In this document: in pieces, positions 1-64,000 of the stretch | How positions within the stretch are numbered: the first letter of the stretch is position 1 | Layout: each line of letters opens with the position of its first letter | Source: Squalus acanthias | Taxonomy: Eukaryota | DNA length: 64,000 bases | Direction: 5' to 3' | NCBI GenBank assembly: GCA_030390025.1 | Contig: CM059432.1 | Location: forward strand, 38,938,001-39,002,000 | Translations under genes and position numbers: made by a program | Notes under the pieces: model-generated | The model's database searches: none | Told to the model about the DNA's origin: nothing | The model's input: the letters and a program-made list of their open reading frames with translations, nothing else

Positions 1-683
1 ACTAAATAAACTTTCCAGCAGAAAATGTTTCATTTCCATTCTGTTATGCAAAAAATAACCAACATACTAAAGGTTGAAAGCTTTGGATAGAAACTGCCCA
101 TTTGCACTTACTGTCTATTCTTTTGTTTATTCAGTTAAAATGACATTCTTTACTAGATACCAGACCATCATTAATGGATTCTTGTCTTCCTGCCAATGAC
201 TATAGTAGTTTTATTGTATCTTTGATTAATGAGTATGATCTTTTGAACTGTACAGCACTTTACTTGTTATCAGCAAACAGGCTTAATTACAGAAATTAAA
301 GTGTTTAACAGCCTCAATATAAAATCAGATGCTCGCTACATTACAAGATTTTAACACTTGATTCAAAAATGTTCTCGGCTCGTCACAAAAGTACCATAAT
401 TATATGGCTAGAAAATGCTCTATACTGCAGTGTTTGTACTTTGCATGGAGAGAGCAGGTTGTAGTAAACACATATTGGACCTGTTGATAATATGAGCCAC
501 AATTCATGCAACCAACGTCTTAAATATATGAATGCTATAAACTTAAATGCATGAAGGGATGAAGTGAACATTCTCCATCAATTGGCTACAGCCCTTCATT
601 AAAATGGCTAAATTCAATATATAGCCAAAACCAAAGGTGAGGAAACAATGGCCTAAAAATGACTCCCAACTTGCAATTATTGT

Positions 684-717
684 GTGTCAACTGTGGCTCA
701 GTGGGTAGCACTCTCTC
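684..717 (+). mobile_element. 5' head of a tRNA-derived Deu-domain SINE (SacSINE1/AmnSINE1-like), split from its body at 4262
   Basis: GTGTCAACTGTGGCTCAGTGGGTAGCACTCTC matches the head of the intact copy at 51731 and contains the A-box. Confidence 0.85.
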
Positions 718-850
718 GGTGGAAGGGGCTGAGAGTGAGCAGGTGCTGCTGGGTGCTTGATTACTGCAGGCAGTTGGAGTGAATTTGTAAAAAGTTGGTG
801 GTGTTTTTCTTCAGGTTTTAGGGCCTTTTTCGTCCTTAAACAGCAACCAG

Positions 851-1880
851 ATGGCTGCTGAGAGGGCTGGGCCACTCAGAGGACAATGTTCCCAGGATGA
901 ATTTAATCAGGGGAGAAAATGTTGGGGGAAGGGAGAAAAAAAGGCCCAACGATTTGGGCCTGGACCCCAGGAGGTTTAGAAAAGAAAACACAGTTCAGTG
1001 CGAGGATAAGGAGATACAAGCTTGGGATATTATCTAGGCGGTACGTGAGGACTGCGGCGAGGGAAGCTGCTTTGCCTGCTGACCAAAGCCGAATGTTGGG
1101 TTCGAGGTGACGGTCAGTAGCCGAGAGGAGGTGGAAAGACTTTTACTGAGTTTGAATGTTGGAGATAAGTTCTTGAAGGTATCTCTGCTATATTCTAAAG
1201 ATGTGCTAATAAAAAAGTTGGAGTAGTGGGACATTAAAATATGCTTGGCAGTAAAGAGGAGATACTATCCAGGAACGCGGGTAGCAAATGGAACCCGTTA
1301 TGTAAAGGTGTGGTTCCCAGAGGGGGTGAAGTCATTGCCGTATAGCATGAAATTCAAGACAATGGAAGGAGTGCAGTACTTCCGGGTATTGCATGATAAC
1401 CAGGTGAAGGTTTGTTATTATTGTCTTGGACACGACCATCTTGTAAGAAGCTGTCCAGATGTGTACTGTTGTAACTGCGGTGAGTCTGGACACATCGCTT
1501 GGAGCTGCAAGGCGGAGAGCTGTGGGGTGTGTCACAAAGGCCCCACCCACTGTGAGTGTGCGGCAGAAGGAAGCCCCTTGAGTGATGAGGAGATGGGAGA
1601 AGGAGAAGGAGCAGGAGGTGTGAGTGGAGTGGCTGGAGGAGCGGAGCAGGTGGAGGACACAGCTGATGAATGGAAGGAGAAAAGAGTGCAGGAATGGAAG
1701 GAGAAAAGAGCGCAGGAAGAGGCAGAAAATTGTGATGCAGAGAACAGGATAGAGATGGTGGAAAAGGACAAAGACAGCAGCGGGCAGCACAGGTCGAGGG
1801 CAGAGTCGAGCCATAATACGGCTCAGCTCTCCCTAAAGAATCTGGTGTCCATGGGGGGAGAGGAGGTGGGTGCGGGGTAA
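851..1880 (+). pseudogene. Tx1-type ORF1 (gag-like zinc-knuckle protein), with stops and frameshifts
   Basis: KRRYYPGTRVANGTRYVKVWFPEGVKSLPYSMKF...YFRVLHDNQVKVC is followed by CYYCLGHDHLVRSC and CCNCGESGHIAWSC knuckles. The upstream frame from ATG 851 is interrupted. Confidence 0.85.
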
Positions 1881-2155
1881 GTGTAAGTACTCCAAAGAAA
1901 GATGGGGAGTCGGACATCTCGGGGAGCAGGAGGGGGCAAGACAAGGAGAGGGTGCAAGAGGCAGTAGCCTTAAAGGGGCAGCAGGATGGGAGCGGGGAGA
2001 CAAAGATGCCAGAAGGGAGCAAGATAGGTGCAGATGCGCCATTGTCCCAGGGAGAGAAGAAACGGGGAGCAAGGATCAGCGGTGGAGATGAGGCCGAAGG
2101 GAGTGGCACTGTTGGAGAAACCGTGATAGCAGGAAGACTCTCTAAGGGAGATTGT

Positions 2156-2993
2156 GGGCTGGATTTTCCAAGCCCCGAGGAGGCGGGCATGGAGGCGGGA
2201 CAGCCAGTAAATTCGGAGAAAGTGGGGGCGGATGGCAAACCCGCCCCCATCCCACCTCCGTGCCCTTTTGCCAGGAGGTGGGAAGATGTGCAGCTTCGGG
2301 TCCCGTCTCCTGGAGGCGGGAAAGGCATTTAATCCTTTTAACTGCCTGTTAACAGGTAGTTAACAGGCAGAAAAAAGGATTAGTGCCATTTTACCTTCAC
2401 AGGTGAAGGCTTCCCGACCTTGGAGAACCCCGCCGGGTTGGAGGAGATGTGGAGGAGGTCTGTGGCGGTCGGAGGCACCTGGAAGTACGGTGTAGTGGTG
2501 AGTGATGGGTGCAAGTGTGGAGTGGTAAGTATGCAAGGTGAGTGATAAGTTTTAAAAAGTGTTCACTCACCTTATTTTCTTCCTACAGTCTTCAGCCGCG
2601 GTGGATCGGGAGAGCTGACATCCCCCTTGTCAATTTCACAGACCGACTGTTGGAACCTCCAAACCAACAGCCATGTGAAATTTACAAATTTGAAAGGTTT
2701 GATGAGTCCTCAACACAAGGACTCATCAAACTAAAGAGAATGTCAGTGTTTGACAGCTTCACAGAGCTGTCAAACGCTGACATTTCTTCTTTCAAGAAGT
2801 CTTGACAGATAGCACGTCTGACGTTGACGTGCTCTGTCAGTGACTTCCTCCCTAATTAGCCTGCTGAGGCGGGCTTAACAAGCTCAATCAGGGGAAAATC
2901 CCTCTGGTTGGTCAGGCAAGGATGGAGGCGGGACATTGACACGACAAGCAGCAGTCCCACTTCCAACTCGTCTCCATTCACAAAATCCAGCCC
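2156..2993 (+). mobile_element. PIF/Harbinger MITE, family B
   Basis: TIRs GGGCTGGATTTT / AAAATCCAGCCC; flanks TGT/TTT. A near-identical inverted copy lies at 9051-9896. Confidence 0.88.
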
Positions 2994-3502
2994 TTTGTAT
3001 CTGACAGGGAGCCGGGACGGGAGGTTACAGAAGAGCTCGAGAGTGAGGAGTCAGATGGGGACAGAGACATGGAAGTGGGAGGTCGGGTGGCATCGTGTGG
3101 AAAGGGAAAGGTTAATGAGGGGTAGAGGAGGGAGAAGGGGCAGCTCCTCAGCCCAAACCTAATGTAAGGGAAAGGCTGAAACTGTAGGGAAGGTTCAAAC
3201 AGGAGGTAAAAATTGCCGGAGGCTGCAGGAGAAAGCAACAGCTACCCGAAAAGTTGGGAAGGAGCATGAGAGGAGGGAAGGGCCGGAGATTAAATGATGG
3301 GGGGATTATCAGGCACACTTCCCTTATTCGGAACCATGATTACTGATCAATTTTTAAAGTACAATAGATTGGCATATGTTATGGGAGACAAATTAAACTT
3401 CCGGTTTTGATGTTAATGGCTGTGCAGAGCGGCAGAATGGATTTGTATGATACAATGGAATGATCACGATGTTGTAAATGTTTTCAATGTTTAATAAATA
3501 AT

Positions 3503-4246
3503 GGCCCAAAAATTTGTGTTGCTACGCGAGAGTACGCACTGTATACTCTCGCGTATTCTGTCTCCAATTGCCGGTTTTCTGCATGCACTGCGCATCCGCT
3601 GAAAACCGGCACTTGGTGAATGCAAAAGGGGGCGGTTCCTAAGTGAACCGCGAGCGCGCTACAGGCTGCGCGCACGCAGTGCACTTAGTGCTTTGAACGC
3701 GCAGGTAAGTATGGAAGATTTTACACATAAAGAAAGGAGGCGTAAGGCCCTCTTTTAACAAGGTAAATAGTTAATTAAGTATTATTTTGAATTTTTTTTA
3801 ACAGGTATATCTTTTTTAGAGACTTTAAAGACAGGTAAGTTTATTTTTATAACTTTTTAAAAGATTTTAAATTTTTTCAAAAATTTAATTTTTTGTTTAA
3901 AATGGTTAATTTATTTAACTATACTTATTTTATTAATGTGATGGTTTTAAAAAATTTTTTAATTGAGGTTTAGCTGTTCTTTTGGGGGGGTATAGTATTC
4001 ATAGCTTTCACAGCACTTATGTGAAAGCTATGAATGAAAGATGGTGTGCTGCCATTGGCTCTAACTGAGTCACGTGATCCCACAGCTCGCACGAATTAAC
4101 TGCGCCTGTGGGATACGGAAGCACTGCCCAGCTGCTGTCCAGAACATCAAGTTCGTGCGAGCTGGGACTGAAAAAGCCAGCGCGCAGTGAGAGATCGCGG
4201 GGAAGCCTTACCCTCGCACGAAGGCTCCCTCACGAATTTTTGGGCC
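3503..4246 (+). mobile_element. PIF/Harbinger MITE, family C (AT-rich core)
   Basis: TIRs GGCCCAAAAATTTGTG / CACGAATTTTTGGGCC; 3-bp TSD AAT; homolog at 61338-62101. Confidence 0.9.
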
Positions 4247-4261
4247 AATATATCAAAACAA

Positions 4262-4700
4262 AGTGGGTAGCACCCTCGCCTCTGGGTCAGAAGGTTTTGG
4301 GTTCAAGTCCCACTCCAGAGACTTGAGCATGAAAATCTAGGCTGACATTCCAGTGCAGTATTGAGGGAATGCTGCACTGTTGGAGGTGCCATCTTTCGGA
4401 TGAGACTTTAAACCGAGGCCCTGTCTGCTCTCTCAGGTGGATGTAAAAGATCCCATGGCACTATTTCGAAGAAGAGCAGGGGTGTTATCACCGGTGTCCT
4501 GGCCAATATTTATCCCTCAATCAACATCACTAGAACAGATTATCTGATCATTATCACATTGCTGTTTGTGGGAGTTTGCTGTGCGCAAATTGGCTGCTGC
4601 GTTTCCTACATTACAACAGTGACTACACTTCAAAAAGTACTTCATTGGCTGTAAAGTGCTTTGGGACGTCTGGTGAAAGGTGCTAGTCTTTCTTGACACT
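4262..4700 (+). mobile_element. Deu-domain SINE body and L2-like tail
   Basis: B-box GGTTCAAGTCCC; Deu core GATCCCATGGCACTATTTCGAAGAAGAGCAGGGG; tail TGTAAAGTGCTTTGGGACG. Confidence 0.9.
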
Positions 4701-5160: not shown

Positions 5161-5501
5161 TACATATAAACTGCAGGCATTAAGATGAATCTGTACATGT
5201 ATTTATACTGTGCCTTTTTTTTCTTTATATAGAGGTGCCAGGATCCAGAAATGCTGCAATGGGTTCTTCCACTGCCAAATCACACAGCAATCACATCCTA
5301 CAAAAATCAGCACAGAGAACAAACCTTGAAGGTAGTGGTTAGTTACGTCAATATGGGATCACCTGGAATAAAAAAAGGTAAATATGGGAGTTTGAAGAAA
5401 GGTCAGATGTCATAGTGTAAAGGCTCCAAATTATGACTTGCAAAGCAGAGGAGCTTCAGGAAGCAAAAGGCCGACTTCACGATCGTGTGTGTAAAAGTGC
5501 T

Positions 5502-6536
5502 CCCACACGAGGGTGTCTCGTTGATTCACCCACATGAGTTGTCTTGCTGCTCCACCCACACAAGGGTGTCTCCCTGATTCACCCACATGAGTTGTCTTGC
5601 TGCTCCACCCACACGAGGGTGTCTCATTGATTCACCCACACAAGGGCATCTCCCTGATTCACCCACATGAGTTGTCTTGCTGCTCCACCCACACGAGGGT
5701 GTCTCATTGATTCACCCACATGAGATGTCTTGCTGCTTCACCCACACAAGGGTGTCTCATTGATTCACCCACATGAGATGTCTTGCTGCTCCACCCACAC
5801 AAGGGTGTCTCCCTGATTCACCCACATGAGTTGTCTTGCTGCTCCATCCACACGAGGGTGTCTCATTGATTCACCCACACAAGGGCATCTCCCTGATTCA
5901 CCCACATGAGATGTCTTGCTGCTCCACCCACACGAGGGTGTCTCATTGATTCACCCACATGAGTTGTCTTGCTGCTTCACCCACACAAGGGCGTCTCCCT
6001 GATTCACCCACATGAGTTGTCTTGCTGCTTCACCCACACAAGGGCGTCTCCCTGATTCACCCACATGAGTTGTCTTGCTGCTTCACCCACACAAGGGCAT
6101 CTCCCTGATTCACCCACATGAGTTGTCTTGCTGCTTCACCCACACAAGGACGTCTCCCTGATTCACCCACATGAGATGTCTTGCTGCTCCACCCACACGA
6201 AGGTGTCTCATTGATTCACCCACACAAGGGCGTCTCTCTGATTCACCCACATGAGTTGTCTTGCTGCTTCACCCACACAAGGGCGTCTCCCTGATTCACC
6301 CACATGAGTTGTCTTGCTGCTTCACCCACACAAGGGCGTCTCCCTGATTCACCCACATGAGTTGTCTTGCTGCTTCACCCACACAAGGATGTCTCCCTGA
6401 TTCACCCACATGAGATGTCTTGCTGCTCCACCCACACGAAGGTGTCTCATTGATTCACCCACACAAGGGCGTCTCTCTGATTCACCCACATGAGATGTCT
6501 TGCTGCTCCACCCACACGAGGGTGTCTCACTGATTC
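5502..6536. repeat. Minisatellite of alternating 27-bp and 26-bp related monomers (53-bp dimer)
   Basis: Monomer A CCCACACRAGGGYGTCTCMYTGATTCA and monomer B CCCACATGAGWTGTCTTGCTGCTYCA repeat over ~1035 bp. Confidence 0.97.
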
Positions 6537-9050: not shown

Positions 9051-9896
9051 GGGCTGGATTTTGTGAATGGAGGTGAGTTGGAGGCGGGACTGCTGCTTGT
9101 CATGTCAATGTCCTGCCTCCACCCTCGCCTGACCAACCAGAGGGATTTCCCCCTGATTGACCTTGTTAAGGCCGCCCTGTGGGCTCAGCAGGCCAACTAT
9201 GGAGGAAGTCACTGACAGATCAGGTCAACGTCAGACGTGTTATCTGTCAAGACTTCTTCAAAGAAGAAATGTCAGCGTTTGACAGCTCTGTGAAGCTGTC
9301 AAACACTGACATTCTCTTTAGTTTGATGAGTCTTTGTGTTCAGGACTCATCAAACCTTTCAACTTTGTAAATTTCACATGGCTGTTGGTTTGGAGGTTCC
9401 AACAGCCATTCTGTGAAATTGACAAGCAGCATGTCGGCTCTCCCGATCCACTGCGGCTAAAGGCTGCATGAAGAAAACAAGGTAAGTGAACACTATTTTA
9501 AACTTATCACTCACCTTGCATACTTACCACTCCACATTTGCACCCATCACTCACCTTTACACCTTACTTCCAGGTGCCTCTGACCACCGCAGACCTCCTC
9601 CACGTCTCCTCCAACCTGGCGGGGTTCTCTGAGGTTGGGAAGCCTTCACCTGTGAAGGTAAAATGGCACTAATCCTTTTTTCTGCCTGTTAACTACCTGT
9701 TAACAGGCAGTTAAAAGGATTAAATGCCTTTCCCGCCTCCAGGAGACGGGACCCGAAGCAGCACATCTTCCCGCCTCCTGGCAAAAGGGCACGGAGGCAG
9801 GATGGGGGCGGCTTTGTCATCCGCCCCCACTTTCTCCGAATTTACCGGCTGTCCCGCCTCCATGCCCACCTCCTCGGGGCTTGGAAAATCCAGCCG
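9051..9896 (-). mobile_element. PIF/Harbinger MITE, family B
   Basis: Inverted near-identical copy of 2156-2993; TIRs GGGCTGGATTTT / AAAATCCAGCCG. Confidence 0.88.
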
Positions 9897-12566: not shown

Positions 12567-13074
12567 ATAGTAAAATTATGTCAGATGTTTCTAGATGTTA
12601 GGAAAAAGGCTGTATTCTAATTATATATGCACACTTTAAATTATTAATTGCAATGATTATATAAAGCTTACACTTACAATATAATATACAATAGAGGGAA
12701 CTTATCAAATACATACATTCCCTCCATTGTATATTATATTGTATCAAATACTTATAAGAAGCTTTATTACAAAAATGGCTCTACTGTTTGTAGTACTGGT
12801 TAGAATATTTAACCAATTTTCAGATATTTTTATTCTCCAGTTCTATAACAAATTTTTCATTCATTTTTCCACATATAACACACTTTGACAGTTGTTTACT
12901 GGAAATATGTAGCTCTGGAAAACGCAATGGCATTTTTTGAATCAGAATGATCCTCTGACTGGAAAATCTGAAAGAAAGAAAGAACACTGCACTCTTACAG
13001 TGCTATATTATGTTCTCAGGACATCCCAAAGTGCTTTACAGCTAATGGATTACAAAGACACAGGTTTTAAAATT

Positions 13075-17695: not shown

Positions 17696-17950
17696 CAAAA
17701 ATGAGAAGTCGCACAACACCAGGTTATAGTCCAACAGATTTATTTAATTTTACAAGCTTTCGGAGCTGTCGCTCCTTCGTCAGGTAAGTTAGCAATGAGA
17801 GAATCTCTCATTGCTAACTTACCTGACGAAGGAGCGACAGCTCCGAAAGCTTGTAAAATTAAATAAATCTGTTGGACTATAACCTGGTGTTGTGCGACTT
17901 CTCATTTTTGTCCACCCCAGTCCAACGCCGGCATCTCCACATCATGACCT
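17696..17950 (+). mobile_element. Penelope-like element terminus in fold-back form
   Basis: Perfect palindrome at 17694-17912 plus the tail CCCCAGTCCAACGCCGGCATCTCCACATCATG; TSD CTATAATAGTAGA at 17683-17695 and 17951-17963. Confidence 0.8.
17823..17854 (+). ncRNA. Minimal hammerhead-ribozyme-like motif (PLE type), mirrored on the minus strand
   Basis: CTGACGA-A-GGAGC-GACA-GCTCC-GAAA-GCTTGT gives a CUGANGA box, stem II, a GAAA box and palindromic AAGCTT. Stem I is not evident. Confidence 0.6.
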
Positions 17951-23264: not shown

Positions 23265-23296
23265 GGTGTCAGTTTTGGCTCAGTGGTAGCACTCTT
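23265..23296 (+). mobile_element. Deu-SINE head, split by a CR1; the body resumes at 25249
   Basis: GTGTCAGTTTTGGCTCAGTGGTAGCACTCT. Confidence 0.8.
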
Positions 23297-25248
23297 AGAA
23301 TCATAGAATGATATGGCACAGAAAGAGGCCATTCAGTCCATCATGCCTGTGCTGGCTTTTTGAAAGAGCTATCCAATTAGTCCCACTCATTTGCTCTTTC
23401 CCCATAGCCCAGCAAATTTTTCCTTTTCAAGTATTCATCCAATTTCTTTTGAAAGTTAATGTTGAATCTGCTTCCACCACTCTTTCAGGCAGTGCATTCC
23501 AGATCATAACAACTCGCTGCATAAAATTATTTTCCTTATCTCGCCTCTGGTTCTTTTTCCAATTACCTTAAATCTATGTCCTCTGGTTACTGACGCTTCT
23601 GCCACTGGAAACAGTTTCTCCTTATTTACTCTATCAAGACCCTTCATGATTTTGAACTCCTCTATCAAATCTCCCCTTACCTTCTCTTCTCTGAGGAGAA
23701 CAACTCCAGTGTCTCTAGTTTCTCCACATAACTGAGGTCCCTCAACCCTGGTACCATTCTAGTAAATCTCCTCTGCACCCTCTCTAAGGCTTGACATCCT
23801 TCCTAAAGTGTGGTGCCCAGAATTGCCCACAATACTCCAGCTGGGGTCCAACGAGTGTTTTATAAAGGTTTAACATAACTTCCTTGCTTTTGTACTCTAT
23901 GGGCTGGATTTTGAATGACCCATGGAGTCGGGTTTGGAGGCGTGTGGGGGGTTAAATTTGCGGGGTCAGGGTTTCCGACCCCATCCCGACTCCATCCCGC
24001 CTCCACGCAATTTTGACATAATCAGTCACGGGGTTCCCGACTCCGTCCCGCCTTCAAGAGGCGGGAGAGGCCATTAAAGCCCTTAACAAGCTCTAAATTG
24101 GCCCTGTAATGCCATTTTGAAACGCTGTAGCTATCTGGTGTGAAACACTCCAGTGAAAGCTGGCGGGAGCACAAGTGGCTAGCGGACTATCTGCTGCTGG
24201 TCCACTATTATAACGGAGATGTGTGATGAAGGTTGTAGTAGTATTAGGTCTGAACGTCACCTCTGATGCTGCTGCATTGAATGTCTTCAGATACTGCCTG
24301 GGAGGACTTGCTTGGCAAAAAAATTCTCTCTCTCTCTCTCTCTCTCCACCCATTGCAGGTCCACTCACATCAAAAGCCAGGCAAGTCCTCTGTCACCAAC
24401 AGTCTCTGAGACTAGGCAGTCAGCAATGATGACATTATCAGAGGTGCCTTTCAGACTGAAAACACTAATTAGTTCATGGGTTCCCACATGCTCCAACTCA
24501 ATTGCCCAATTAAGTGAAAATTGCATCAGGCATCCACATTAATCTGGAGTCGGGGGGGAAACACGAAATGCGGATTACACGACCCCAACCCGACCCCAAG
24601 ACAAAATCCAGCCCTATGCCTCTATTTATAAAGCCAAGGATCCCGTATGCCTTTTTAACAGCCTTCTCAACTTGTCCTACCATTTTCAAAGACTTGTGTA
24701 TGTACACCGCCAGATCCCTTTGTTCCTGCACCCCCTTTAAAATTGTACCATTTAATTTATATTGCCGCTCCTTATTCACCCTACCAAAATGAATCACTTC
24801 ACACTTCTATGCATTAAATTGTACCTGCCATGTGTCTGCCGATTTCACCGGTCTGTCTATGAACTCCTGTTACTATCCTCCTCACTGTTTACTACATCCC
24901 GAGTTTTGTGTCATTGGCAAACTTTGAAATTATGCCCTGTACACCTAAGTCCAGGTCATTAATATATATCAAAAAGAGCAGTGGTCTCAACACCGACCCC
25001 TGGGGGACACCGCTGCACATTTCCCTCCAGTCTGAAAAGCGACCATTTACCAGTACTCTCTGCTTTCTGTCCCTTAGCAATTTCGTATCCACACAGCCAC
25101 TGCCCATTTAATCCCATGGGCTTCAATTTTGCTGACAAGTCTATTATGTGGTACTTTTTCAAATGCCTTTTGAAAGTCCATAAACACAACATCAAACACA
25201 CTACTCTCACCCACCCTCTCCGTTACTTCATCAAAAACTCAATCAAAA
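23296..25248 (-). mobile_element. CR1 LINE, 5'-truncated, containing the MITE at 23901-24614
   Basis: Tail TAGAATCATAGAAT; minus-strand RT motifs SGVPQGSVL.PLLFLIYINDLD and ISKFANDTKL. Confidence 0.92.
23901..24614 (+). mobile_element. PIF/Harbinger MITE, family A
   Basis: TIRs GGGCTGGATTTTG / CAAAATCCAGCCC; TSD TAT. Confidence 0.92.
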
Positions 25249-25517
25249 ACTGAGTCAGAAGGTTGTGGGTTCAAATCCCACTCCAGAGACTTGAGCACAT
25301 AATCTGGGCTGACATATCAGCGCTGTATTGAGGGAGTGCTGCACTATCGGAGGTGTCATCTTTCGGATGAGACATTATACCGTGGCCCTGTCTGTCCTCT
25401 CAGGTGGACGTAAAAGATCCAATGACTCCATTTGAAGAAGAGCAGGGGAGTTCTCATTTGCTGTAAAGTGTTTTCAGATGTCCTGAGGTCGTGAAAGGCA
25501 CTATATTAATACAAGTA
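25249..25517 (+). mobile_element. Deu-SINE body (internally deleted)
   Basis: CTGAGTCAGAAGGTTGTGGGTTCAAATCCC...GTGAAAGGCACTATATTAATACAAG. Confidence 0.85.
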
Positions 25518-25668: not shown

Positions 25669-25870
25669 ATGCGGAGATGCCGGTGTTGGACTGGGGTGGA
25701 CAAAAGTGAGAAGTCGCACAACACCAGGTTATAGTCCAACAGCTTTATTTGACATCACAAGCTTTCGGAGCGCTGCTCCTTCGTCAGGTGAAGAAGGAGC
25801 AGCGCTCCGAAAGCTTGTGATTTCAAATAAAGCTGTTGGACTATAACCTGGTGTTGTGCGACTTCTCACT
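25669..25870 (-). mobile_element. Penelope-like fold-back terminus with hammerhead-like core
   Basis: Inverted arms at 25704-25782 and 25793-25871 (1 mismatch); TSD TAAAATTGCATA at 25657-25668 and 25871-25882; minus strand CTGACGAAGGAGCAGCGCTCCGAAAGCTTG. Confidence 0.8.
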
Positions 25871-48653: not shown

Positions 48654-50855
48654 GGAGGGAATTTTAACCACGAAGTGCAGGTGGGTTGGGGGAGGGATGG
48701 TAAAAAAATGTAAAATCTCAAACCCGACCCCAACTCGCCTCCAACACGCCCACTTCCGGCTCTCAATCTTTTAAGGAGGCTGCGTTTCTCCATTTTAACT
48801 GCATTTTTATTTTTAACTCATGGAGGCTGGGATTCCGAGAATCCCGGCAGGTGAAAGAAGGCGAGAAGGGTCGGATCCATGAGGTAAGTGCCTTTAGTGC
48901 ACTGCTTGTGGGCCAGGAGGAGCAGGAGTGTTTTCTCCAGGCCCAACAAGCTTCCTTCAACGTGTTCGGCTGACCCCCAACCCCCGTGATGTCTGATTAA
49001 CCCCCATCCCCCGCAATGTCCCACCCCACTGATGTCCGAGCCCCCCTGCAATGTGCAACCTCCCCGATGTCCAGCCCCCCCGCCCTGTGATGAGAGGGAG
49101 GAACTTAATGAAATCAGTATTTGTAGGGAAATGGTGTTCGGGAAATTGACGGGATTGAAGGCAGATAAATCACCAGGGCCTGACAATCTAGGTTACTTAA
49201 GGAAGTGGCCCTAGAAATAGTAGATGCATTGCTGGTCATCTTCCAAAATTCTATAGACTATAGACTCTGGAACAGTTCCCATGGATTGGAGGGTAGCTAA
49301 TGTAACCCCACTATTTAAAAAAGGTGGTAGAGAGAAAACGGGGAATTATAGACCGGTAAGCCTGACATCGGCAGTGGGGAAAATGCTAGAGTCCATTGTA
49401 AAAGATGTAATAGCAGAGCACTTGGAAAACAGTGACAGGATCGGACAAAGTCAACATGGATTTACAAAAGGTAAATCATGCTTGACTAATCTACTGGAAT
49501 TTTTTGAGGATGTAACTGGTAGAATAGAGAAGGGAAAACCAGTGGATGTGGTGTATTTGACTTTCAGAAGGCTTTCGATAAGGTCCCGCATAAGAGATTA
49601 GCGTGTAAAGTTAAAGCACACGGGATTGGGGGTAAGGTACTGACTTGGATAGAGAACTGGTTGGCAGACAGGAAGCAAAGAGTTGGAATAAACGGGTCTT
49701 TTTCCGAGTGGCAGGCAGTGACTAGTGGGGTACCGCAGGGATCGGTGCAAGAACCCCAGTTATTCATAATATATATTAATGATCTAGACGAGGGAGCTAG
49801 ATGTAATGTCTCCAGGTTTGCAGACGACACAAAGCTGGGTGGGCGTGTGTGCTGTGAGGAGGATGCAGAGAAACTCCAGTATGATTTGGACAGGTTGGGT
49901 GATTGGGCAGATGCATGGCAGATGCAGTATAATGTGGATAAATGCGAGGTTATCCACTTTGGTGGCAAAAACAGGAAGGCAGATTATTATCTGAACAGCA
50001 ATAGATTGGGAAAAGGGGAAGTGCAACGAGACCTTGGTGTCCTTGTGCACCAGTCGCTGAAGGTAAGCATGCAGGTGCAGCAGGCGGTTAAGAAGGCAAA
50101 TGGTATGTTGGCCTTCATAGCGAGAGGATTCGCGTACAGGAGCAAGGATGTCTTGCTGCAGTTGTACAAGGCCTTGGTGAGACCACACCTTGAGTATTGT
50201 GTGCAGTTTTGGTCACCTTATCTGAGGAAGGATGTTCTTGCCATGGAGGGAGTGCAGTGAAGATTCACCAGACTGATGCCTGGAATGGCAGGAATGACGT
50301 ATGAAGAGAGATTGGGTCGATTGGGCTTGTATTCGCTAGGGTTTAGAAGAATGAGAGGGGATCTCATTGAAACTTATAAAATTCTAACAGGACTAGACAG
50401 ACTAGATGCAGGAAGGATGTTCCCAATGGCGGGGGAGTCCAGAACCAGGGGTCACAGTCTAAGGATAAGGGGTAAGCCATTTAGGACTGAGATGAGGAGG
50501 AATTTCTTCACCCAGAGAGTGGTGAACCTGTGGAATTCTCTACCACAGAAGACAGTTGAGGCCAATTCATTAAATATATTCAAGAAGGAGTTAGATGTAT
50601 TTCTTAAGGCTAAAGGGATCAAGGGATATGGGGAGAAAGCAGGGACAGGGTACTGAATTTGGATGATCAGCCATGATCTCATTAAATGGCGGAACAGGCT
50701 CGAGGGGCCGAATGGCCTACTCCTGCTTCTATGTTTCTATGTCAGACTTACCTCAGCCAGCCTATTAATCTGTTAATTTCTGCAAGGCGTATGGGAAACC
50801 CATACCTCTCCACTCCCCCCCGCACTCTCCTCCCAACTGGAGTAAATACTAGGGC
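48654..50855 (+). mobile_element. Harbinger-type MITE, family E, split by the CR1 at 49088-50741
   Basis: Starts GGAGGGAATTTTAACC; similar to 55901-55950 plus 58333-58985; right end uncertain. Confidence 0.55.
49088..50741 (+). mobile_element. Young CR1 LINE, 5'-truncated, RT region with few lesions
   Basis: ORFs 49281-49601, 49661-50260 and 50276-50656 give NYRPVSLTS, SQHGFTKGKSCLTNL, SGVPQGS and RFADDTKLGG. There is a TGA (likely CGA decay) at 50258 and a TTCTATGT tail. Confidence 0.95.
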
Positions 50856-51730: not shown

Positions 51731-52155
51731 GTGTCAGCTGTGGCTCAGTTGGTAGCACCCTCGCCTCTGACTCAGAAGGTTGTGGGTCTCAAGTCCCTCT
51801 CTAGAGACTTGAGCTAGGCTGACACTCCAGTGCAGTACTGAGGGAGTGTTGCCCTGTTGGAGGTGCCGTCTTTCAGATGAGGCATTAAACCGAGGTTGCA
51901 TCTGCTCTCTCAGGTGGACGTAAAAGATCCCATGGCACTATTTCAAAGAAGAGCAGGGGAATTATCCCTGGTGTCCTGGCCAATATTTATCCCTCAATAA
52001 GCATAACAAAAACAGATTATCTGGGAGCTTGCTGTGTGCAAATTGGCTGCCCCATTTCCTACATTCAAAAAAGTACTTCATTGGCTGTAAAGCGCTTTTT
52101 TGACGTTTGGTGATCGTGAAAGGTGCTGTATAAATGCAAGTCTTTCTTTCTTCTT
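51731..52155 (+). mobile_element. Near full-length Deu-domain SINE
   Basis: tRNA head, Deu core and tail ending AAATGCAAGTCTTTCTTTC. Confidence 0.92.
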
Positions 52156-62255: not shown

Positions 62256-62985
62256 GGGCGTGATCTTGCCAGCCCTGGGGAGGCGGGTACGGAGGCGTGA
62301 CTGCCGGGAAAATGGCAGAATTTGGGGGTGGGTGCCCAGCCATCTTCCCAGGAGGCAGGTAGCTGTCCCACGCCGGGTCCCATCTCCTTGGAGGCGGGAA
62401 AGAATTAAAGCCTATTAACTGCCTGTTAACAGGTAGTTAACAGGCAGAAAATAGGATTATCCCCTTTTTGCCCTCACAAGTGCGGGCTTCCCGAAGGCTC
62501 CGAAACCCACCAGGTCAGTGAGGCGAGTAGTGGGTCTGCGGGGGTCGGGGGGGTGCAAAAGTGCGCTGTGAAGGTAAGTGATGGGTGCAAGTGTGGAGAG
62601 GTGAGTATCTGCGGTAAGTGCAAAGTGTTAGTAAAAGTGTACTTACCTTTGTTTCTTCCTGCAGGCTTCAATCGGTGGGTATTCAGAGAGTCTCGCACCT
62701 CAACGGTAGAGATAACAGATGGCCGTTGCATTCTCCAATGCAACAACCATCTCATTTCTGCAAAAGAAAGATGTTTGATGAGGTCTTGAAATTTTTGACA
62801 GATGAAACGTCATACGTTGATGTTCTCAGTAACCGGCTTTCCCTTAATTGGCATGCTAAGCTGGGCTTAACAAGGTCAATCAAGGGAAAATAGTGTGGGT
62901 TGGCCAGAAGTTGTTGGGGGCCGAACTGAAACCCGACAAGTGGGAGTCCCACCTCCAAAAGCTCCCCATTGGCAAAATCACCCCC
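62256..62985 (+). mobile_element. PIF/Harbinger MITE, family B variant
   Basis: TIRs GGGCGTGATCTTGCC / GGCAAAATCACCCCC; TSD TTT. Confidence 0.9.
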
Positions 62986-63744
62986 TTTGTGTTCTCCTCA
63001 CAGCTTACTGTCCCACCTAGCTTTGTATTGTCAGCAAACTTGGATACATTACACTCAGTCCCTTCATCTAGGTCATTAATATATATTGTAAATAGCTGAG
63101 GCCCCAACACTGATCCTTGCGGCACCCCACTAGTTACAGCCTGCCAACCTGAAAAAGACCCGTTTATCCCTACTCTCTGTTTTCTGTCCATTAGCCAATC
63201 CTCTATCCATGCTACTATACTACCCCCAACCCCATGAGCCCTTATCTTGTGTAATAACCTTTTATGTGGCACCTTATCAAATGCCTTTTGGAAATCCAAA
63301 TATATTACATCCACTGGTTCCCCTTTATCTACCCTGCTATTTACATCCTCAAAAAACTCTAATAAATTTGTCAAACAAAATTTCCCTTTCATAAAACCAT
63401 GTTGACTCTGCCTAATCATGTTATGATTTTCTAAGTGCCCTGATACCACTTCCTTAACAATGGATTCCAGCATTTTCCCGATGACTGATGTCAGGCTAAC
63501 TGGCCTGTAGTTCCCTGTTTTCTCTCTCCCTCCTTTCTTGAATAGCAGTGTTACATTTGCTACCTTCCAATCCGCTGGGACCGTTCTAGAATCTAGGGAA
63601 TTTTGGAAGATAAAAACCAATGCATTCACTATTTCTGCAGCCACCTCTTTTAGAACCCTAGGATGTAAGCCATCAGGTCCAGGGGATTTGTCGGCTTTTA
63701 GTCCCATTAGTTTCTCGAGTACTTTTTCTCTACTTATATTAATT

Positions 63745-64000
63745 CTTCTCTTCTTACTTCTTAAGCAGTCCCTCGGAACCGAGGATGACTTGCTTCCACA
63801 TTAAAAATGAGTTCTCAGGTGACTGATGAGTCCAATGCGGGACCTACAGTCTCTGTCACAGGTGGGGCAGACGCTGGTTGAAGGGGCGGGTGGGTGGGGT
63901 GCTTGGGTTGACGTACGCTCCTTCCGCTGCTTGCACTTGGCTTCCGCTTGCTCCCGGCGAAGAGACTCGAGGTATTCGGTGCCTTCCCGGATGCTTCTCC
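63745..64000 (-). mobile_element. RTE-clade LINE 3' end (runs off the window)
   Basis: The minus strand reads RSIREGTEYLESLRREQAEAKCKQRKER...CPTCDRDCRSRIGLISHLRTHF (stop at 63801-63803), followed by a short UTR and a GAA-rich tail. Confidence 0.85.

What the first reader, a model, noticed from the sequence alone, without database searches (positions are those of the whole stretch)
684..4279. ORF1-only Tx1-like retroelement inserted in the tRNA A-box of a SINE
Seen: removing the two nested MITEs leaves a ~1.95-kb element with a 5' leader, a zinc-knuckle ORF1, only ~200 bp where a ~3.8-kb ORF2 would be expected, AATAAA and an A-rich end. It is bracketed by an 18-bp duplication (16/18) of the SINE A-box region AGTGGGTAGCAC.CTC.C. 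Established: several Tx1-clade lineages are sequence-specific for multicopy RNA loci or microsatellites, and ORF1-only L1 derivatives (HAL1) are known in mammals. Inference: this may be a non-autonomous half-Tx1 family that targets tRNA-like A-boxes and so parasitises the genome's most abundant SINE.
Basis: partly seen in the sequence, partly recalled or inferred. Interest (0 to 1): 0.75.

Follow-up and report, generated by a model that had tools for sequence, protein, structure and literature searches.

The report
Half-LINE inserted in SINE promoter
This is a decayed copy of a 2-kb jumping gene that kept the first gene and both ends of a LINE, lost its copying enzyme and probably spread by borrowing it; this copy cut a SINE in the middle of its promoter box, but whether the family aims at that box is still open.

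Summary
The anatomy is real. A tRNA-headed SINE (684-715 + 4262-4676) is split inside its A-box by a poly(A)-tailed insert with a 16-bp target duplication (15/16). Without two later MITEs the insert is 1,958 bp: leader, decayed zinc-knuckle ORF1, and 195 bp to AATAAA. New here: ORF1's stop overlaps an ATG, as in a full-length two-ORF relative, and the last ~20 codons of the 38-codon frame it opens score as an ORF2 C-terminus (1st of 2,163 stop-anchored segments; post hoc test). So ORF2 was lost by internal deletion. Related copies occur in several coded organisms, and laid contig depth shows no step across the deletion (ratios 0.85 and 1.05). Three of this copy's four ORF1 stops are private to it. 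This fits a family that spread as an ORF1-only, HAL1-like unit (about 0.8), though no contig spanning the junction was displayed. A-box targeting is unproven (about 0.55): one insertion plus one diverged contig starting in the duplicated target, against an unrelated LINE piece in another head of the same SINE. No partner LINE was found, and Tx1 membership rests on ORF1 likeness only.

The parts
684..715 (+). 5' piece of the host tRNA-headed SINE, with the A-box (694-705)
   Evidence: Matches positions 1-32 of the intact copy at 51731; A-box pattern
700..715 (+). Left target-site duplication (16 bp); break inside the A-box at 699/700
   Evidence: 15 of 16 identical to 4262-4277
716..850 (+). 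5' leader of the retroelement
   Evidence: Sequence leaves the SINE at 716; first ATG at 851; covered by contigs of other copies
851..2155 (+). ORF1, first part (start codon inferred); decayed, with stops at 1035, 1080, 1224, frameshifts and a ~15-codon gap near 1205
   Evidence: tblastn of seven homologues over 942-1829; stops
1413..1508 (+). Two CCHC zinc knuckles
   Evidence: Motif scan; Pfam zf-CCHC E 0.0012
2156..2993 (.). MITE 1, inserted later into ORF1
   Evidence: 12-nt inverted ends and 3-bp flanks; 92% identical copy at 9051-9895; five contig pieces of other copies stop at 2146-2153
2994..3297 (+). ORF1, acidic/basic C-terminal part (stop at 3123, frameshift), ending at the stop 3295-3297
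   Evidence: Translations; assignment of this low-complexity part to ORF1 is by position and likeness in layout to L001
3294..3410 (+). 38-codon ORF2 remnant: ATG overlapping the ORF1 stop, in frame with the last ~20-30 codons of an ORF2; deletion junction inferred between ~3300 and ~3350
   Evidence: Same AAATGA overlap in full-length relative L001; stop-anchored profile score ranks 1 of 2,163
3411..3502 (+). 3' UTR with AATAAA (3493-3498)
   Evidence: Sequence
3503..4246 (.). MITE 2, inserted later between AATAAA and the tail
   Evidence: Inverted ends and AAT/AAT duplication; related copy from 61331 at 80%
4250..4261 (+). Decayed A-rich tail
   Evidence: Sequence
4262..4277 (+). Right target-site duplication
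4262..4676 (+). Remainder of the host SINE, with B-box at 4300-4310
   Evidence: 78% to the intact copy at 51747-52113; B-box pattern

Best explanation
One dead copy of a non-autonomous, ORF1-only retroposon family (about 2 kb) derived from a two-ORF LINE of the Tx1-like lineage. Steps: (a) an internal deletion removed nearly all of ORF2 and left its start codon joined in frame to its last ~20-30 codons, the 3' UTR and the poly(A) signal (anatomy shown; deletion inferred). (b) The shortened master kept an open ORF1 and was copied many times; its RNA is probably made by RNA polymerase II, packaged by its own ORF1 protein and reverse-transcribed in trans by the ORF2 protein of a complete relative that recognises the retained 3' end (family spread supported by depth; trans-mobilisation inferred from known LINE biology). 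(c) This copy was inserted by target-primed reverse transcription at a nick in the middle of a SINE's A-box, giving a 16-bp duplication and separating the A- and B-boxes (shown). (d) It then decayed and took up two MITEs (shown). Whether the borrowed endonuclease prefers the A-box is open; I put it slightly above even (about 0.55), and the confidence below does not include it.
For: Target duplication, tail and split SINE. ORF1 50% identical over 111 aa to ORF1 of L001, a complete element with an endonuclease-RT ORF2 of 1,296 aa and the same AAATGA stop/start overlap. The last 15 or 20 residues of the 38-codon frame rank 1 of 2,163 stop-anchored segments of the window against a profile of 99 ORF2 C-termini, 1 of 5,000 shuffles reaching the score; all 38 residues rank only 8 of 950. 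Words of 716-2155 are held in 20 of 24 listed runs from 9 studies, best share 0.43. Summed contig depth of the bin holding the junction over the two bins before it: 0.85 (X1) and 1.05 (X5), while in X5 depth falls from about 55,000 near the 3' end to 19,000-40,000 in the first 430 bp, so truncation is visible along the element but no step at the junction. At the stops 1035, 1080 and 3123, 93-99.9% of summed depth in X1 and X5 carries a sense codon.
Against: No displayed contig piece spans the junction; the output shows only 24 pieces of about 138,800. Summed contig depth is not copy number, as the tool states. Local profile-HMM tests of the 38-residue frame were not significant (176 of 1,000 and 116 of 2,000 shuffles reached the score), and the stop-anchored test was chosen afterwards. 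A search of 1.84 billion representatives with the 38 residues gave only three repeat-protein artefacts. No partner LINE was found: RT pieces in the window are at most 31% (one 44-aa piece 36%) identical to the 120 relatives. The fourth stop (1224) is not among the 40 of 616 variant rows shown.
Confidence: 0.8

Rival explanations
1. The same ORF1-only family, and its partner's endonuclease is specific for the tRNA-type A-box, so copies sit at this base of SINE heads (or of true tRNA genes, with SINEs as decoys). This is the best explanation plus targeting.
For: The break is at a G/C-rich site in the A-box, not a T-rich L1-type site (L1 site recalled). In run X5 (another coded organism) a 232-nt contig, 12% diverged, depth 7.5, aligns from 706 to 925 from its first base, i.e. 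through 10 nt of the duplicated target (table 8, record 17). Many Tx1-clade families are target-specific, including for other repeats (PMC4494074, introduction and section 15 read). The ORF1 relative L001 has flanks that look like two halves of a 5S rRNA gene (recalled motif). SINE sequence covers only 2.8% of the window.
Against: One insertion and one contig whose flank letters were not displayed. Rfam did not confirm the 5S flanks of L001. Another head of this SINE (23266-23295 / 25250-25456) is interrupted by an unrelated LINE fragment, so 2 of 3 heads in the window are hit and heads may collect insertions generally.
Confidence: 0.45
2. ORF1-only family without sequence targeting; this copy landed in a SINE head by chance or because such heads are general insertion sinks.
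For: Second interrupted SINE head with an unrelated, opposite-strand LINE fragment about 20 nt from this break. The SINE is abundant: depth 47-89 times that of the element. The locus was picked because it looked striking.
Against: A-box bases are a tiny share of the window; X5 record 17 starts within the target; the lineage is often target-specific.
Confidence: 0.35
3. An ordinary autonomous two-ORF LINE copy that lost ORF2 by a one-off deletion during or after insertion; there is no ORF1-only family.
For: This copy has other private gaps (about 15 codons near 1205). No spanning contig is displayed, and in X1 depth dips 15% in the junction bin, like the dip at the private gap.
Against: No depth step across the junction in X5 although depth falls toward the 5' end over under 2 kb; about 3.8 kb of extra ORF2 in most copies should give a clear step. 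The deletion leaves ORF1, its stop and the 3' end intact, the layout described for HAL1.
Confidence: 0.17

Closest known systems
HAL1 (half-L1) of mammals (PMC5753468, passages read; the primary paper PMC2923044 was not available)
   Same: Non-autonomous LINE derivative that encodes only ORF1; arose from a two-ORF parent.
   Different: Here ORF1 is a CCHC-knuckle type, not the mammalian L1 type; the host is a non-mammalian vertebrate (shark-like, from recalled repeat families); a short in-frame ORF2 remnant is kept; it may be target-specific.
Target-specific Tx1-clade LINEs: Tx1L in Tx1D, Keno (U2), Kibi/Koshi (microsatellites), Tx1-Mar (PMC4494074, sections 3 and 15 read); Mutsu (5S rRNA) and Dewa (tRNA-Leu spacer) (PMC3706591, passage)
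   Same: CCHC-type ORF1 (described as consistent with the Tx1 clade in PMC5203782, passage); insertion into a multicopy repeat; relative L001 has apparent 5S flanks.
   Different: Those are autonomous. None of the passages read names a tRNA or SINE A-box as a Tx1 target; Dewa uses the spacer of tRNA arrays. Specificity here is untested.
SINEU-3 with Tx1-Mar in crocodilians (PMC4494074, passages)
   Same: A non-autonomous passenger thought to inherit the target preference of a Tx1 partner, landing in another repeat.
   Different: SINEU is non-coding and snRNA-derived; this element is a coding internal-deletion derivative of the LINE itself.
Dada DNA transposons in tRNA genes (PMC3706591, passage)
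   Same: Insert in the A-box; the reported duplication TAGCTC ends at the position equivalent to this break.
   Different: Dada are cut-and-paste DNA transposons with 6-bp duplications, unrelated in mechanism.

Membership tests
HAL1-like ORF1-only retroposon | Encodes ORF1 and lacks endonuclease/RT | tested here: met
   ORF1 homology; no ORF2 domain hit between 716 and 4261 with a profile of 120 ORF2 proteins; 195 bp from stop to AATAAA
HAL1-like ORF1-only retroposon | Retrotransposed as a unit (duplication, A tail) | tested here: met
   16-bp duplication and A-rich end bracket the unit; this alone does not date the deletion
HAL1-like ORF1-only retroposon | Many independent copies share the deletion junction | tested here: inconclusive
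   No depth step across the junction in X1 and X5, but no spanning contig displayed
HAL1-like ORF1-only retroposon | Derived from a two-ORF LINE by internal deletion | tested here: met
   Stop/start overlap as in L001 and ORF2-like C-terminus by a post hoc anchored test; local tests not significant
HAL1-like ORF1-only retroposon | Autonomous partner with matching ends in the same genome | not testable with these tools
   No genome held; none in the window
HAL1 in the strict sense (mammalian L1 derivative) | Mammalian L1-type ORF1 (Transposase_22 domain) | tested here: not met
   Pfam gives only zf-CCHC for four ORF1 pieces and for relatives
Tx1 clade | RT groups with Tx1 in a phylogeny | not testable with these tools
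   The element has no RT; no named Tx1 reference set was at hand. L001's RT region is 55% identical to BAC82613.1, 'pol-like protein', Danio rerio; its family name was not found
Tx1 clade | ORF1 with CCHC zinc knuckles followed by an endonuclease-RT ORF2 in complete relatives | tested here: met
Target-specific Tx1 family | More than 20% of copies flanked by the same repeat (criterion in PMC4494074) | tested here: inconclusive
   One locus and one contig; flanks of other copies could not be counted
tRNA-derived SINE (host) | A- and B-box head, non-coding, multicopy | tested here: met
   Box patterns (recalled consensus); several copies in the window. ARAGORN and Rfam call no tRNA. The SINE family name was not tested

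The most novel reading that the evidence does not exclude
A high-copy, ORF1-coding half-LINE of the Tx1 lineage, shared by several related species, whose borrowed endonuclease cuts the tRNA-type A-box. It would be a target-specific coding parasite that inactivates the promoter of each SINE it enters, and it would point to an undescribed autonomous LINE specific for A-boxes of SINEs or tRNA genes, at the spot also used by Dada DNA transposons.
Probability: 0.45. Interest if true: 0.65.

Novelty: new variant of a known kind. Interest (0 to 1): 0.5.

Why it matters
ORF1-only LINE derivatives show what a retroposon must keep in cis. One from a zinc-knuckle (Tx1-like) lineage that kept ORF1 open while it spread would extend the HAL1 way of life beyond mammalian L1. 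If it also targets the A-box, it adds a Pol III promoter element to the list of LINE targets and gives a simple way in which one retroposon family disables another. Both ingredients are known separately; the combination was not in the passages I read (searches).

Tried and rejected
No whole genome is held, so the proposed genome BLAST could not be run; the element has no second copy in the 64-kb window. Collection scans: viral contigs gave nothing by protein or by a 22-nt motif; prokaryote genome contigs likewise; metagenome contigs gave 2 loci of 370 candidate stretches, L001 and L002, which are 99% identical with the same 5' flank and count as one. The 38-residue frame against 1.84 billion representatives gave three repeat artefacts. 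Local HMM tests of that frame were not significant. A 19-nt likeness between the 3' UTRs of the element and L001 is within chance (42 of 500 shuffles). Rfam found nothing at L001's ends, so the 5S reading is recall only. I first took the variant rows at 3333 as proof of contigs spanning the junction and dropped this, because 'from_end' counts to the contig's end whether aligned or not. The 18-bp duplication was reduced to 16 bp. Pol III transcription of the element is unlikely: the B-box lies beyond it and seven T4+ runs lie on its sense strand. Expression: no RNA holder listed; X17 is only guessed to be RNA and is not used as evidence. X22 (raw reads, another organism) laid only 30 reads and is uninformative. 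Earlier scan notes held no look-alike of this element. Supplements of PMC4494074 could not be read; they list Tx1 flanks and may bear on whether an A-box target is already recorded. Repbase itself and the HAL1 and 2004 Tx1 primary papers were not seen.
Full report
Observation. The described structure is in the sequence. A SINE is split: 684-715 matches the first 32 bases of an intact copy at 51731-52113, and 4262-4676 matches it from base 17. With recalled consensus patterns the A-box is at 694-705 and the B-box at 4300-4310, so the break at 699/700 lies inside the A-box and the insert separates the two boxes. Two MITEs sit at 2156-2993 and 3503-4246, each with inverted ends, 3-bp flanks and relatives elsewhere in the window. 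Without them the insert is 1,958 bp.

ORF1. The frame around 942-1829 aligns to all seven proteins returned by the homologue search (7 of 82 candidates; 32-43% identity) and has two CCHC knuckles. None of these proteins carries a name. This copy is dead: stops at 1035, 1080, 1224 and 3123, frameshifts and a gap of about 15 codons. A metagenome scan returned a complete relative, L001 (2 loci of 370 candidates, both the same element), 50% identical over 111 ORF1 residues, with a 1,296-aa endonuclease-RT ORF2. Its RT region is 55% identical to BAC82613.1, a zebrafish 'pol-like protein'. L001's flanks look like two halves of a 5S rRNA gene, as described for Mutsu; this is recall, and Rfam did not call the ~30-nt pieces.

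What happened to ORF2. ORF1 ends at 3295-3297 in AAATGA, where an ATG overlaps the stop; L001 has the same overlap at its ORF2 start. The ATG opens a 38-codon frame, 3294-3410. Local tests of that frame against ORF2 C-termini failed: 176 of 1,000 shuffles reached its score with three sequences, 116 of 2,000 with 99 sequences (99 of 120 hits had a complete end), and a library-wide search gave only repeat artefacts. Because the claim is about the last codons before a stop, I then scored it anchored at the stop; this test was chosen after the others. The last 15 or 20 residues rank first of 2,163 stop-anchored segments of the window, with 1 of 5,000 shuffles as high; 25 and 30 residues also rank first; all 38 rank 8 of 950. 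I read this as an ORF2 start joined in frame to the last 20-30 ORF2 codons by an internal deletion between about 3300 and 3350.

Is it a family? No genome is held and the window has no second copy. Words of 716-2155 are held in 20 of 24 listed runs from 9 studies, best share 0.43. I laid 4 of those 24 runs on 640-4400 at 80% likeness; X22 gave 30 reads and X17 is shallow, so the argument rests on X1 and X5, two coded organisms. Summed contig depth in the bin holding the junction, over the two bins before it, is 0.85 in X1 and 1.05 in X5. In X5 depth falls from about 55,000 near the 3' end to 19,000-40,000 in the first 430 bp, so 5' truncation is visible over less than 2 kb, yet there is no step where 3.8 kb of ORF2 would lie in complete elements. 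X1 is flat throughout and has no such control, and its 15% dip resembles that at this copy's private gap. At three of the four stops, 93-99.9% of depth in both runs carries a sense codon; the fourth is not among the 40 of 616 rows shown. Of the 33 shown rows I scored (leaving out 3 in the leader and 4 in MITEs), 7 are synonymous, 23 change a residue and 3 are those stops, as expected for neutral decay of this copy. Five contig pieces end at 2146-2153, so other copies lack MITE 1. Limits: summed depth is not copy number, and no contig spanning the junction is among the 24 pieces displayed. The element's depth is 1/89 and 1/47 of the SINE's, which suggests thousands of copies if the SINE has some 10^5 (inference). 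I put the ORF1-only family at 0.8.

Is it targeted? For: the break is not at a T-rich L1-type site (recalled); SINE sequence is 2.8% of the window; many Tx1-clade families are target-specific, several for other repeats (PMC4494074, sections 3 and 15 read); and in X5 a 232-nt contig, 12% diverged, depth 7.5, aligns from 706 to 925 from its first base, through 10 bases of the duplicated target. Its flank letters are not shown, so this is suggestive only. Against: it is one insertion, chosen because it looked striking, and a second head of the same SINE (23266-23295 / 25250-25456) is interrupted about 20 nt further on by an unrelated, opposite-strand LINE fragment with RT pieces and no duplication. 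Two of three heads in the window are thus hit, which allows a general sink. Earlier AI notes describe Tx1-like LINEs at fixed sites of tRNA-derived SINEs in other genomes and a Penelope-targeting Tx1 family in this genome; they are unchecked leads and are not counted as support. I put targeting at about 0.55 given the family, 0.45 overall.

Mechanism. Shown: the anatomy, the split SINE, later MITE insertions and decay. Supported: internal ORF2 deletion and spread as a short unit with an open ORF1. Inferred from known LINE biology: Pol II transcription (AATAAA; T runs on the sense strand), ORF1 protein acting on its own RNA, and a complete relative's ORF2 protein acting in trans on the retained 3' end and choosing the site. 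No partner was seen; RT pieces in the window are distant.

Comparison. It works like HAL1, an ORF1-only non-autonomous L1 derivative that arose several times in mammals (PMC5753468, passages), but it is not HAL1 in the strict sense, since its ORF1 is of the CCHC type, which PMC5203782 links to the Tx1 clade in non-mammalian animals (passage). Tx1 membership by RT phylogeny cannot be tested. If targeted, it parallels SINEU-3/Tx1-Mar, and the break position matches the A-box site used by Dada DNA transposons (PMC3706591, passage). An ORF1-only Tx1 derivative or an A-box-targeting Tx1 did not appear in the listings and passages seen (searches); the library lacks most subscription papers, the HAL1 paper was not held, Repbase was not searched and the supplements of PMC4494074 were unreadable.

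Verdict. Observation confirmed; interpretation partly supported. A new variant of a known kind, interest 0.5; 0.65 if A-box targeting holds.

Noticed in passing
window 23266-25456: A second copy of the same SINE is split just after the A-box (head 23266-23295, body from 25250) by a minus-strand, 5'-truncated LINE fragment with RT pieces (CR1/L2-like by recall), with a small target deletion; the fragment holds a MITE (~23901-24616) with the same 12-nt ends as MITE 1.
   Followed up: partly
L001 1-6808: Apparently intact two-ORF Tx1-like element in a metagenome contig, with flanks resembling the two halves of a 5S rRNA gene (Mutsu-like, recalled); its ORF1 has a long N-terminal tandem repeat.
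   Followed up: partly
window 700-752 (table 5c): Run X5 lists a joint from 752 back to 700 at depth 410. It may be a short insertion in the leader of other copies mapped wrongly, or a repeated target-plus-leader unit; unresolved.
   Followed up: no
window 3503-4246: MITE 2 is very deep in run X1 (about 1-2.6 million) but nearly absent over 3916-4167 in run X5 (208-1,302), so it looks lineage-restricted and younger than the host element's family.
   Followed up: no
window 5449-6000 and beyond: Tandem repeat with a 53-bp unit made of alternating 26- and 27-bp subunits.
   Followed up: no
window 62952-63800 (-) and 49113-50092 (+): Other LINE reverse-transcriptase fragments, 22-31% identical to the Tx1-like ORF2 set; not the partner.
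   Followed up: partly
window 12674-12744, 17745-17861, 25708-25867: Hairpins that give sub-threshold Rfam microRNA matches; probably palindromic repeats.
   Followed up: no
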